Shown here one piece after another: positions 3,001-6,000 of a DNA stretch of 8,336 nt; the first letter of the stretch is position 1; every line of letters begins with the position of its first letter. A program made the position numbers. The DNA is from a virus (Duplodnaviria; Heunggongvirae; Uroviricota; Caudoviricetes), in the IMG/VR virus record IMGVR_UViG_2778261169_000006; one strand, 5' to 3'.

Positions 3001-6000
3001 AGCGAAGGTCTTGCAGGAATGCTTAACAATAACTTTTTCTTTTGAGGAGTAAAATATGGGCCGCGCCAATCCTTTATATGGAGCTAATTTTACAGATTCA
3101 AGAATGCCTATTTTTTATCCGTACCCTGGGTTAACTGATGGGTCTCTTGGGTTGCTGGATGCTTATGAAGTGGATGAAAATTTTAATTTATCAGCGACAG
3201 GTACTGATATATCGACAACGCCAAATTTAGCCGCGATTCCAGCCGCCACTTTAACTGGCGTATCGCAGGCTGATTTGGCCTTTAAGTATTCAAACACACT
3301 TGGTAGCACTGAAGTTAAGTTTGAGAGAACACCAAAGCTTGGTATTCATGGCATAGTCTCTCAGGTCAATCAGGTATCTGGCCACCTGGCCCGGTTCCGC
3401 TGCCCTGGCATCCTGCCGTACGTTGTTGCACATCAGAATGATCATCAGTTCGCAGTGTTTGTGCATCATCGTATTACTCGAGATAAGCCGTCATCGACGA
3501 ACCAGAACCCTGTAGAAGTGTTGATGTCGCATAACTCAGCTCCATCTAATAATAAGTTGCTGATTGCCAGTCTGGATGGAGGGTTGACGGGTAATCCAGC
3601 CCTGAAATCTCAAGCGTCAGCAAAAACAGGCACAGATATGGCTGTCGCAACTGCCTACTACGACCATATGGTTTGGGGGTCACCTAGCGGTTTCGGTACG
3701 CTACTGAACAATTTGTGTCGTTCATACGTCCTTTACAGATGGCATTTTATCGATCTCACTGCAGCAGGTATGACCATGGCAGAGGCCACGGCGTCTGAAC
3801 AGGATATCTTTAACAGGCGATTCAGTTCAGGCGGGAAGTACTATGGCGACACGATCCCAACAAATCCGTCTACCTTTCCGTAGCAGCTATTGATCTGCCT
3901 TTAAAGTGCAACCGCTGTATATAAAAACAGTATATGGGAGGGCAGATCATGCTTCGACAGTCAGACATCGCCGCGGCTTTCCGCGAGTCGGTATTGCGCA
4001 ACTCCAAAGGTTTTCAGTACCTGCACACAAAGGATTTTGTGTCAGCGCTGCGCCGGCGTGGGCTGCACTTTACCGACTCAGAGGCTAATGCGTGGATATC
4101 AAGAGAGCAGACGTACTTTGTCGACAAAACCACCGACCATAGCGAAAACCGTTTGTGGATGCTGGCGAACATGGGGAGGGTTTTGTAATGGGCTTTCCTT
4201 CACCGGCGTCTGACTACGTTGAACAGCGTCTGTCCGTTAACTCGATCTGCAATGTCGGCCCTAACACCCGCGTTTTCGAAAGGGATGGCGGTTATGTTGT
4301 GCTGGATATCTCCCTGAAGCCAAAGCAGGGTAGTCAGGTTCTTATCCAGCACGGCGGCGGGACGGAACTTGCCACGTTGAGAGGGCGGTCGCTGATAACC
4401 GAAGATGGCGAAGCGATCGAGGGCGAAGCCCTGGACGATGTTACTGTCATCGGGGTCGTGACATTTACTATCTGCGATGTTCGTTCTGATAATTCTATTA
4501 TTTAATTGGGGTATATATGGCGCTGAAGCTATTAGCCAATAATAACGCAAAGAGTGTGCTCGCTGCGGGTATTAGCGCGTCCGCTACCGTTATTACCGTG
4601 GGTACTGGAGCGGGGTCTTTATTCCCTTCCCCTGTATCTGGGCAGAGTTATTTCAAATTAACGATAACCGACGCGGCCACGAAAACAATTTCTGAAATTA
4701 TGCACGTAACGTCTGTATCCGGTGACGTGATGACAGTAATTCGTGGTCAGGAAGGAACTACGGCACGCGTATGGTCAACGAATGACATTGTCGCGAATTT
4801 AATGACCGCCGGATCATTGTTATCTTTCCTGCAGATCAGCAATAACCTGTCAGAAATTAAAGATGCCGGTGAGGATGCGATAAATGAAGCCCGTTATAAC
4901 CTCGGAATATCTGATTCCTCTGGTTTTGTCGGGCGTTCACTTGGCGCTCCAAAAGCTTTCTATGCAAACGGAACCTATACGCGATCTCCTCTGGCCCGTT
5001 ATGCAAAAGTAACGTTGACCGGTGCCGGTGGCGGCGGTGGCGGCTGCCAGGCCTCCAACAATACAGAAACCTTCTCCGGTGCTGGCGGCGGCGCGGGCGC
5101 GACCATTATCGTATGGGTTGACCTGTCTGCTGCCAGTTCTGATGACTACCCGCTGAAGTGAAAATTGTGTTGTGTACCAAATTGCGTACCAAACTAAAAT
5201 CACAAATCATGAAACCTTGGTTCATGGCGGTTCTCAGGGGTGTTGCTGAACCGTGTTGATACATCAACTGCACCTGATATTGAGTGGCCGGAAGAACCAG
5301 ACACAATGTAAGCGAAAAAGAAAAACCGCAGACACGACGTATGCAGGACGTGCTGCGGTTGGCTGGTGAACTTTCGATAGTGCGAGTATTGAATGATTTC
5401 CAGCCGTTACCGATTTTACGTGTTTATTAGTGAACAAACCACTCGTCAGCAGACTCCCAGGTATCTTTCAGAGTCTCCTGAACAAATGTTTTTGCAGAAT
5501 CTTTATCTGCGGTGCGTGTAACAGAAAGCCCATCGTTGCTGGTGGCTTTTACGATCACCTCTACATCGTCATAACGTTTACTGATGCGTCGGGTTAATTC
5601 TTCCTTTAACGCATCCACAGCACCGTTTGGCATTTTAGTCATTTTTTCTTTGGCTATGCAGATCTCAATACGCATAAAAGTCCCTCTATACTGTGTTTGT
5701 ATACAGTATTATTTTTAACTGTATGGATAAACAGTGTCAAGAGGTCTTATTTCTGCTCCTTTGGAGCTCTTCAAAACGATTATGTAAAGATTTCGGATAC
5801 AGTTCGGTATATACCTGCCATAGCACGTTTAATGAACGATGCCCTGTAACCTGAGCGACTTCCTCAATACTAAAACCAGCCTCAAATAAGCGACTTGCCC
5901 CTTCTCTACGCAAATCATGGTATCGCAGATCTTTAATACCTAATTTGCTTCTTACCCTCTGAAATCCTGCAGTAACAGAAGTGCTGTTATATGGAAAAAT

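What the first reader, a model, noticed from the sequence alone, without database searches (positions are those of the whole stretch)
4517..5311. Decayed second tail-fibre module: truncated fibre N-terminus plus a tfa 3' stub
Seen: a 214-aa ORF with a P2 gpH-like N-terminal pattern and a Gly-rich segment ends abruptly at 5161; about 50 bp later only the last ~33 codons of tfa remain (5213-5311, preceded by an in-frame stop). Inference: an ancestral fibre-tfa module lost its middle by deletion. The fragment may still be expressed as the third cistron of the LexA-controlled transcript (start 11 nt after the UmuD'-like stop, GGGG SD), which would be an unusual context for a fibre fragment.
Basis: partly seen in the sequence, partly recalled or inferred. 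Interest (0 to 1): 0.45.

Follow-up and report, generated by a model that had tools for sequence, protein, structure and literature searches.

The report
Truncated fibre gene beside unrelated tfa scrap
This stretch is an ordinary recombination scar at the end of an E. coli prophage: a recently truncated second tail-fibre gene, a scrap of another phage's attachment-site arm, and the last 23 codons of the resident phage's tail-fibre chaperone gene, which never belonged to the truncated fibre.

Summary
The sequence features are real, but the single-module story is not. ORF 4517-5161 (214 aa) exists. Codons 1-208 are 100% identical in protein to intact 343-aa "glycine-rich domain" short tail-fibre genes of temperate myovirus-type phages.

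Compared with an intact locus (L003), 630 bp are missing. Codon 208 is fused to the last six codons (DDYPLK*) of a humD/umuD'-like pseudogene.

Window 5141-5246 is the left arm of the "type 2851" phage attachment site (attP, sbcB-integrating phages). Only 5238/5247-5311 (23 codons) comes from tfa, and it is the tfa of the resident mEp460-like lambdoid prophage at dusA (100% identical DNA from 5238 onward).

Six intact homologues were examined and none has a tfa downstream. Another prophage (L021) carries the same attP-arm::tfa joint without any fibre gene. So this was not one fibre-tfa module that lost its middle.

The LexA box, 79-aa gene, UmuD'-like gene and fibre order is not an odd context. 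It is conserved in all the intact phages examined. There is no significant similarity to P2 gpH.

Verdict: ordinary prophage mosaicism and recent gene decay. The fragment is probably still transcribed but has no function. Interest is low.

The parts
3913..3932 (+). LexA (SOS) box cGCTGTATATAAAAACAGTA upstream of the three-gene cassette; core CTGT-N8-ACAG at 3915-3930
   Evidence: Pattern search found 3 matches in the window against 0.10 expected by chance. The box is conserved in all 8 aligned loci while the flanking sequence varies (A3). No binding experiment was possible.
3949..4188 (+). First cistron: 79-aa protein of unknown function (phrog_3893)
   Evidence: PHROGs E 2.9e-39. Annotated as a 240-nt CDS in L001 and L002. 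Present ahead of the UmuD'-like gene in every related locus.
4188..4505 (+). Second cistron: 105-aa UmuD'/HumD-like protein (S24 fold). It begins at the position equivalent to UmuD G25, and Val aligns with the catalytic Ser60
   Evidence: phrog_3469 'UmuD-like protein', E 1.2e-46. Matches PDB UmuD/UmuD' (8gmt, 1umu), E about 1e-4, over aa 2-43. Its start overlaps the upstream stop (TAATG).
4506..4516 (+). 11-nt intercistronic spacer with GGGG Shine-Dalgarno (4508-4511)
   Evidence: Read directly from the sequence. Identical or nearly so in 7 loci that carry intact third genes (A4). No terminator-like site on the + strand in 3800-5750.
4517..5140 (+). First 208 of 343 codons of a short 'second' tail-fibre gene: N-terminal anchor domain, helical neck, and the first third of the Gly_rich_2 receptor-binding-type domain
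   Evidence: 100% amino-acid identity over aa 1-208 to L003 and L012, 99.5% to L002. The DNA differs at 6 synonymous and 0 non-synonymous sites. Alignment A5. PHROG tail-fibre families. PDB 8jov tail fibre, E 2.4e-7. The model of the intact P0002 matches the Pam3 and Bxb1 fibres.
5141..5161 (+). Last 6 codons plus stop (DDYPLK*) of a humD/umuD'-like pseudogene remnant. This piece supplies the stop codon of the 214-aa ORF
   Evidence: Alignment A2. Matches L003 9859-9879, which is the end of the PGAP pseudogene 'HumD family translesion DNA polymerase, frameshifted, incomplete'. The same remnant is annotated 'S24 family peptidase' in L020.
5162..5246 (.). Non-coding left arm of the 'type 2851' attP (sbcB-integrating phages). 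It ends 1-2 nt short of where the 13-bp core CGTAATCGTGAAA would begin
   Evidence: 96-97% identical to L003 and L020. The same stretch lies next to the annotated attP in mEp234 and next to the insertion duplication in Stx phage 1717. The core sequence is given in PMC4159516.
5238..5246 (.). Junction 2: the 9-bp stretch GGGTGTTGC, shared by the attP arm and tfa
   Evidence: Alignments A1 and A6. Identity to L003 ends at 5246 and identity to L004/L005 tfa begins at 5238.
5247..5311 (+). 3' stub of the resident lambdoid tfa. The tfa reading frame runs from 5240: 23 codons VLLNRVDTSTAPDIEWPEEPDTM plus TAA. There is no start codon
   Evidence: Window 5238-5450 is 100% identical in DNA to L004 and L005, where this stretch is the end of full-length 194-aa Tfa genes. 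Pfam Caudo_TAP E 1.6e-8. PGAP calls the equivalent stretch in L001 'tail fiber assembly protein, incomplete'.

Best explanation
Window 4517-5311 is a composite recombination scar at the right end of a lambdoid (mEp460-like) prophage integrated at dusA. It is not a single decayed fibre-tfa module.

Piece A (4517-5140) is the first 208 of 343 codons of the short second tail fibre of a temperate myovirus lineage (Klebsiella phage RothD, E. coli PDP110P1 and related prophages). In those phages the gene is always the third cistron, after a LexA box, a 79-aa gene and a UmuD'-like gene. Its N-terminal domain (~133 aa) is a paralogue of the N-terminus of the phage's long fibre, and its C-terminal domain is swappable (Gly_rich_2, gp53-like or Collar).

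Relative to an intact locus, 630 bp are missing. This fuses codon 208 in frame to Piece B (5141-5246), which is the last six codons of a humD pseudogene plus the left arm of the type-2851 attP.

Piece C (5238/5247-5311) is the last 23 codons of the resident prophage's own tfa, the chaperone gene that partners stf (31-3045). It joins Piece B at, or within 2 nt of, the attP core.

Inferred steps:
- A donor phage segment (fibre C-terminus, 275-aa gene, SOS cassette, short fibre, attP arm) replaced the distal part of stf and most of tfa in a lambdoid prophage.
- The right-hand joint was probably made by the 2851-type integrase acting on a core-like sequence inside tfa (about 50% confidence). Otherwise it arose by microhomology-mediated illegitimate recombination.
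- The 630-bp deletion is recent.
- The block then moved between the dusA prophage and the Qin-type prophage by homologous recombination.

Predicted function:
- The 214-aa ORF is probably still transcribed, on SOS induction and by late read-through, and translated.
- It lacks about two-thirds of its receptor-binding domain and the conserved C-terminus.
- It sits in a lambda-type tail gene set with no evident docking partner, so it is most likely a non-functional pseudogene.
- The tfa stub has no start codon and is inert.
For: Shown:
- aa 1-208 are 100% identical to intact 343-aa genes, and the tail DDYPLK is not homologous to them.
- The deletion maps as L003 9229-9858, with the right edge inside an annotated humD pseudogene.
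- Window 5135-5246 is 96-97% identical to the sequence flanking the attP/attR core of sbcB-integrating phages. The annotated core is at L022 2865-2877 and L023 2864-2876, and its sequence is confirmed in PMC4159516.
- Window 5238-8336 is 99-99.5% identical to dusA prophages that carry full-length tfa.
- Six intact loci show the order 79 aa, 105 aa, fibre, followed by an integrase or the prophage end, never by tfa.
- The N-terminal domain is 48.5% identical to the long fibre of the same phages, and 64-68% identical to baseplate-adjacent fibres of Pantoea PdC23 and Yersinia vB_YenM.
- Fibre identity rests on PHROG tail-fibre families, PDB 8jov, and a model of the intact protein that matches the cyanophage Pam3 fibre (E 4.8e-9) and Bxb1 tail-tip proteins.
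- L021 has the attP arm joined to tfa with the crossover on the other side of the core, and has no fibre gene.
- The exact 214-aa allele occurs in two prophage contexts, dusA and Qin/pinQ.
- Only 6 synonymous differences separate it from intact alleles.
- The truncation at residue 208 removes most of the confidently modelled domain, residues 140-343.
Against: - No intermediate (intact fibre gene, humD remnant, attP arm joined to tfa) was found in 5,426 complete E. coli genomes, so the order of events is not established.
- In L021 the attP-arm::tfa joint lies inside a single prophage with no matching attL, so integrase involvement is inferred only from position.
- The tfa sequence matches only 7 of the 13 core positions, and its 9-bp identity to the arm is 2 nt out of register with the core.
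- The ORF has stayed open and identical on at least 24 contigs. That is compatible with some retained use, although the time elapsed is too short to judge.
- Expression and LexA binding were not tested.
Confidence: 0.85

Rival explanations
1. One reading: one ancestral fibre-tfa module lost its middle in a single deletion, leaving the fibre N-terminus and the 3' end of its own tfa.
For: Both remnants are real and lie about 50-75 nt apart on the same strand. Fibre-chaperone pairs are the usual arrangement in lambdoid and P2-like phages (established knowledge).
Against: - Intact 343-aa homologues are the last gene before the integrase or prophage end, with no tfa.
- The deletion's right edge lies in a humD pseudogene.
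- 106 nt of attP(2851)-arm sequence (5141-5246) separate the fibre part from the tfa-derived bases, the last 9 nt shared with tfa.
- The stub is contiguous at 100% identity with the resident lambdoid tfa/dinI/int backbone.
- The attP-arm::tfa joint exists without the fibre gene in L021.
Confidence: 0.04
2. The 214-aa ORF is a retained, functional short protein. For example, an SOS-induced anchor-domain fragment that interferes with fibre assembly of co-resident or superinfecting phages, rather than a dead remnant.
For: - The frame stays open through an in-frame fusion.
- The Shine-Dalgarno sequence and operon context are intact.
- The identical allele is found on at least 24 contigs (the index lists it in 48 blocks) in two different prophages.
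- The N-terminal anchor domain and helical neck are complete.
Against: - Only 6 synonymous differences from intact alleles, so persistence needs no selection.
- The double-junction allele is present in 1 of 5,426 complete genomes.
- Two-thirds of the C-terminal domain and the conserved ...IxEE(F/Y)A end are missing.
- Other truncated variants of different lengths (188-231 aa) occur, which looks like sporadic decay.
Confidence: 0.08
3. A sub-rival for junction 2 only: the attP-arm::tfa joint arose by RecA-independent, microhomology-mediated illegitimate recombination at the shared 9-mer GGGTGTTGC, with no integrase involved.
For: The 9-bp identity sits exactly at the joint. The tfa sequence matches only 7 of 13 core positions and is out of register by 2 nt. 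Junction 1 is clearly such an illegitimate event.
Against: Two different joints (the window and L021) fall on either side of the same 13-bp att core, within about 12 nt of each other. That would be a striking coincidence for random breakage. Prophage-into-prophage integration at att-like sites is documented in E. coli (PMC8112680).
Confidence: 0.45

Closest known systems
Glycine-rich-domain (Pfam PF21722 Gly_rich_2) phage tail fibres, e.g. cyanophage Pam3 fibre (PDB 7YPX/7YFW) and mycobacteriophage Bxb1 tail-tip proteins (9D93); nearest sequences are the 343-aa 'glycine-rich domain-containing protein' of E. coli/Klebsiella prophages (P0002, WP_225104008.1)
   Same: aa 1-208 are identical to the 343-aa proteins. 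The intact relative has the full PF21722 domain (60.6 bits), and its model matches the Pam3 and Bxb1 fibres.
   Different: The window copy keeps only profile positions 7-47 of 226 (22.6 bits, below the cut-off). It lacks the conserved C-terminus and ends in six foreign residues.
Lambdoid tail fibre assembly protein Tfa (Pfam PF02413 Caudo_TAP), and the tfa fragments common in cryptic E. coli prophages
   Same: The last 23 codons are identical to the full-length Tfa of dusA prophages. The Pfam match is above the cut-off.
   Different: There is no start codon and 171 of 194 codons are missing. The stub partners the lambdoid stf, not the truncated short fibre.
attP of phage 2851 / Sf101 / mEp234 (sbcB-integrating; 13-bp core CGTAATCGTGAAA)
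   Same: Window 5141-5246 is the conserved left arm, including the tail of the humD remnant.
   Different: The core itself and the right arm with int are absent. tfa sequence takes their place, so this is not a functional attP.
P1 HumD / E. coli UmuD' (SOS mutagenesis accessory protein), here the neighbouring gene and the pseudogene tail
   Same: The 105-aa neighbour starts at the UmuD' N-terminus and sits behind a LexA box. The DDYPLK* tail is from an annotated HumD-family pseudogene.
   Different: No umuC partner is present in the window. Val aligns with Ser60 of UmuD. Function was not tested.
Prophage-into-prophage integration and mosaic prophage ends in E. coli (Nakamura et al. 2021, PMC8112680)
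   Same: A phage att-arm is joined to sequence inside another prophage.
   Different: The target here is the 3' end of tfa, not one of the described attB-in-prophage sites. Integrase involvement is only inferred.

Membership tests
Gly_rich_2 (PF21722) short tail fibre of RothD/PDP110-type temperate myoviruses | Conserved N-terminal anchor domain (~aa 1-133) shared with the phage's long fibre | tested here: met
   100% identical to intact genes; 48.5% identical to long-fibre N-termini in L003, L008 and L009; alignment A5.
Gly_rich_2 (PF21722) short tail fibre of RothD/PDP110-type temperate myoviruses | Complete glycine-rich C-terminal domain scoring above the Pfam gathering threshold | tested here: not met
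   22.6 bits against a 24.3-bit cut-off, profile positions 7-47 of 226 only. The intact P0002 scores 60.6 bits over positions 7-223.
Gly_rich_2 (PF21722) short tail fibre of RothD/PDP110-type temperate myoviruses | Conserved C-terminal end (...G.G..I.EE[FY]A) and a length of 320-375 aa | tested here: not met
   The protein ends at residue 214 with the non-homologous DDYPLK (A5).
Gly_rich_2 (PF21722) short tail fibre of RothD/PDP110-type temperate myoviruses | Position as third cistron after LexA box, 79-aa gene and UmuD'-like gene, with an 11-nt spacer | tested here: met
Tail fibre assembly protein Tfa (PF02413) | C-terminal conserved segment (LLNRVD...EWP) | tested here: met
   Pfam 35.2 bits, E 1.6e-8. 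BLASTP E 4e-16 against the L004 Tfa.
Tail fibre assembly protein Tfa (PF02413) | Complete ORF (~190 aa) with a start codon, directly downstream of its fibre gene | tested here: not met
   Only 23 tfa-derived codons remain, preceded by an in-frame TGA and attP-arm sequence.
P2 gpH-type tail fibre | Sequence similarity of the N-terminal region to P2 gpH | tested here: not met
   BLASTP best E 0.079, 13/37 identities. No gpH-type Pfam domain.
LexA-regulated (SOS) operon | LexA box (CTGT-N8-ACAG, AT-rich spacer) in the promoter region, conserved among homologues | tested here: met
   Box core at 3915-3930. Three boxes in the window against 0.10 expected. Conserved in 8 of 8 loci.
LexA-regulated (SOS) operon | LexA binding and DNA-damage-inducible transcription reaching the third cistron | not testable with these tools
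   Indirect evidence only: overlapping or closely spaced cistrons, and no terminator-like site.
attP type 2851 | 13-bp core CGTAATCGTGAAA flanked by both arms and an adjacent integrase | tested here: not met
   Only the left arm is present (5141-5246). At the core position the window reads TGAACCGTGTTGA from tfa. The core sequence is from PMC4159516.

The most novel reading that the evidence does not exclude
Two readings go beyond 'scar' and are not excluded.

(a) The attP(2851)-arm::tfa joints in the window and in L021 lie on opposite sides of the att core. They could be the two products of integrase-mediated recombination at a cryptic att-like site inside the conserved 3' end of tfa. That would be a recurrent route by which phages exchange tail-fibre and integration modules.

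(b) In the intact phages a second receptor-binding fibre is hard-wired as the third cistron of a LexA-box operon with a UmuD'-like gene. An alternative host-range determinant would then be under direct SOS control.
Probability: 0.3. Interest if true: 0.4.

Novelty: new member of a known kind. Interest (0 to 1): 0.15.

Why it matters
The direct value is small. The result corrects an attractive but wrong reading: two neighbouring remnants are not two halves of one module. It also gives exact breakpoints for a mosaic prophage end.

Indirectly it documents three things:
- A conserved cassette of LexA box, 79-aa gene, UmuD'-like gene and short fibre in temperate myoviruses of Klebsiella and E. coli. 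The third gene swaps its C-terminal domain the way receptor-binding proteins do.
- A likely start-codon mis-call in RefSeq for these genes (M72 instead of M1).
- A candidate cryptic attachment site for 2851-type integrases inside tfa. If real, it would help explain how tail-fibre and integration modules are shuffled among enterobacterial prophages.

Tried and rejected
- P2 gpH likeness: tested by BLASTP against P2 gpH (AF063097) and rejected.
- A Pin/Hin-type crossover site at 5205-5230: considered from memory because L001 has pinQ nearby. Dropped because the stretch is the conserved attP(2851) left arm in phages that have no invertase.
- An old tfa remnant inside the attP arm (suggested by 'SW..VL', and the Pfam alignment extends over it): codon-by-codon comparison shows only chance-level identity outside TGG and the 9-mer (my reading of A6).
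- Prophage-in-prophage test in strain BS15R-A: I looked for the matching attL (tfa 5' part plus a 2851-type int) and found none. The joint lies inside a single argW/intS-torI prophage.
- Search for an intermediate (intact fibre, humD remnant, attP arm::tfa) in 5,426 complete E. coli genomes: none found.
- Rfam scan of the window: no RNA family.
- Promoter and terminator scan: counts are at chance level. One promoter-like site at 4464-4493 lies just upstream of the ORF but is not distinguishable from background.
- dN/dS on the retained 208 codons: 6 synonymous and 0 non-synonymous differences, too few to say anything about selection on the truncated form.
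Full report
SETTING. The window is the right end of a lambdoid prophage integrated at dusA in E. coli.
- stf occupies 31-3045. It has a PF08400 N-terminus and the ORF runs off the 5' end of the window.
- A 275-aa ORF follows at 3056-3883.
- Then come a LexA box, a 79-aa gene (3949-4188), a 105-aa UmuD'-like gene (4188-4505) and the 214-aa ORF (4517-5161).
- On the minus strand are a DinI-like gene (5427-5675) and an integrase (5737-6834), followed by dusA and pspG.
- From 5238 to the end the window is 99-99.5% identical to ordinary dusA prophages, whose layout is stf, tfa, dinI, int, dusA (L004, L005). 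The integrase and DinI module is that of phage mEp460.

OBSERVATION.
- The 214-aa ORF, its start 11 nt after the upstream TAA, and the GGGG Shine-Dalgarno are all as described.
- The glycine-rich stretch gives only a partial, sub-threshold PF21722 match.
- The reading frame 5213-5311 follows an in-frame TGA and ends in a Tfa C-terminus. It matches Pfam Caudo_TAP (E 1.6e-8) and an annotated Tfa at 25/31 residues.
- Two details fail. There is no significant similarity to P2 gpH (E 0.079). Only 23 codons, not about 33, derive from tfa.

WHAT THE ORF IS.
- Homologues number in the hundreds. The nearest cluster (797 members) has 343-aa proteins, and relatives with a Gly_rich_2 C-terminus are 320-375 aa.
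- The window protein is identical to them through residue 208 and then reads DDYPLK* instead of 135 further residues.
- The N-terminal ~140 residues recur in proteins with quite different C-termini: Gly_rich_2, gp53-like_C and Collar. Swapping of this kind is the hallmark of receptor-binding proteins.
- The N-terminal domain is 48.5% identical to the N-terminus of the long fibre in the same phages. It is 64-68% identical to the baseplate-adjacent fibres of Pantoea phage PdC23 and Yersinia vB_YenM phages.
- The nearest intact relative (P0002, 343 aa) also matches a solved 'putative tail fiber protein', 8jov.
- An AlphaFold model of the intact 343-aa protein has pLDDT of about 90 for residues 140-343. 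It matches the cyanophage Pam3 fibre and the Bxb1 tail-tip proteins.
- The ORF is therefore a truncated tail-fibre gene, but of this family and not P2 gpH-like.

NATIVE CONTEXT.
- In L002, L003, L007, L008, L009 (Klebsiella phage RothD) and L012 (PDP110P1) the order is fixed: baseplate genes, long fibre, optionally a ~260-aa gene, LexA box, 79-aa gene, 105-aa UmuD'-like gene, short fibre, then the integrase or prophage end.
- The LexA box is conserved in all eight aligned loci while its flanks vary.
- The 11-nt spacer with GGGG is conserved in all seven loci that have a third gene.
- No terminator-like site is seen.
- The 'unusual' SOS context is therefore the normal one for this gene. None of these intact genes is followed by a tfa.

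JUNCTION 1.
- Identity to intact genes ends at 5140.
- From 5141 the window matches L003 9859 onward, which is the last six codons plus stop of a PGAP-annotated HumD-family pseudogene.
- Relative to L003, 630 bp (9229-9858) are missing.
- The flanks share only imperfect microhomology (AGTT.T...ATG), so this was an illegitimate deletion.
- The retained 624 nt differ from intact alleles at 6 synonymous and 0 non-synonymous sites, so the event is recent.

THE SPACER.
- Window 5141-5246 occurs next to dacD/sbcB at the ends of unrelated prophages (L003 myovirus-type, L020 P22-like).
- It also occurs in phages mEp234, Sf101, 2851 and 1717, immediately left of the annotated attP or insertion duplication.
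- The 13-bp core is CGTAATCGTGAAA (PMC4159516).
- The spacer is therefore the left arm of the type-2851 attP.

JUNCTION 2.
- Identity to the attP arm ends at 5246, 1-2 nt before the core. Identity to full-length tfa starts at 5238. The two share GGGTGTTGC.
- Just past the joint, tfa reads TGAACCGTG where attP reads GCGTAATCGTG.
- A P22-like prophage at argW (L021) has the same arm joined to tfa, but there the crossover lies on the other side of the core (...CGCGTAATCGTG|TTGATAC) and no short-fibre gene is present.
- The tfa stub is therefore independent of the fibre gene.
- Two joints bracketing the same att core suggest integrase action at a cryptic site in tfa. This is an inference at about 50% confidence. 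The matching attL was not found, and microhomology alone could explain the joints.

SPREAD.
- The exact 214-aa allele is on at least 24 contigs (the index lists it in 48 blocks). It occurs at dusA (L013 and L017, identical to the window) and in a Qin-type prophage next to pinQ (L001, L014-L016, L018, L019). In the Qin-type context, identity to the window ends at 5289, inside the tfa stub.
- Only 1 of 5,426 complete genomes has the double-junction allele.
- Other decay states exist. L006 loses the cassette after codon 4 of the 79-aa gene. L005 keeps the two SOS genes but has an stf fragment plus full tfa in place of the short fibre.

FUNCTION.
- Shown: the ORF lacks two-thirds of its C-terminal domain and its conserved end.
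- Inferred: it is still co-transcribed and translated. It has no docking partner in a lambda-type tail and is a young pseudogene.
- The tfa stub has no start codon.
- A retained interfering role for the anchor fragment cannot be excluded, but nothing supports it (about 8%).

VERDICT. The fibre gene is truncated and the tfa stub is real, but they do not form one module. This is ordinary prophage mosaicism, and interest is low.

Noticed in passing
window 1-3045 (+): The stf ORF runs off the 5' end of the window (full gene 1054 aa in L015/L017). It is a chimera: a lambdoid PF08400 N-terminus (window 1-257, 94% identical to L004), a shaft 70-74% identical in protein to the long fibres of the myovirus-type prophages L007/L012, and a C-terminal part that PGAP names SGNH/GDSL hydrolase only in a diverged relative (L005); it was not matched to any esterase family here.
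   Followed up: partly
window 3056-3883 (+): The 275-aa ORF after stf has no Pfam hit. It matches phrog_18370 (unknown function) and weakly matches the C-terminus of a 'minor tail protein' PHROG. It may be a fibre accessory or chaperone that travels with the stf C-terminus.
   Followed up: no
window 4188-4505 (+): The UmuD'-like protein begins exactly at the UmuD cleavage product's N-terminus (MGFPSPA...). Val aligns with the catalytic Ser60, and no umuC is nearby. It is always paired with the 79-aa phrog_3893 protein of unknown function behind a conserved LexA box.
   Followed up: partly
window 5691-5706 and 5719-5734: Two further CTGT-N8-ACAG LexA-type boxes lie upstream of the DinI-like gene (5427-5675, minus strand), between it and the integrase gene.
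   Followed up: no
L001 8851-9282; L002 8848-9666; L003 8818-9636: RefSeq/PGAP starts these fibre genes at Met72 (giving 272 aa, or 143 aa for the truncated copy). Residues 1-71 are conserved across all homologues and the Shine-Dalgarno precedes Met1, so the start is probably mis-called.
   Followed up: partly
L006 (NZ_CP024815) 6880-7620: A sister locus has the same stf and 275-aa gene. Its identity to the window stops at codon 4 of the 79-aa gene, after which a 65-aa Pin recombinase fragment and a 35-codon tfa stub follow. This is an independent decay state of the same region.
   Followed up: partly
L005 (NZ_CP020514) 4911-6409: At the same dusA site another strain keeps the LexA box, the 79-aa gene and the UmuD'-like gene, but these are followed by an Stf C-terminal fragment and a full-length tfa. 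The SOS pair has therefore been joined to lambdoid fibre genes more than once.
   Followed up: no
L003 9966-10040 / L020 (reverse strand): To the right of the att core, the reverse strand reads MMNDGKQQSTFLFHDY. [quoted passage not shown] The humD remnant is part of the phage-side arm.
   Followed up: partly
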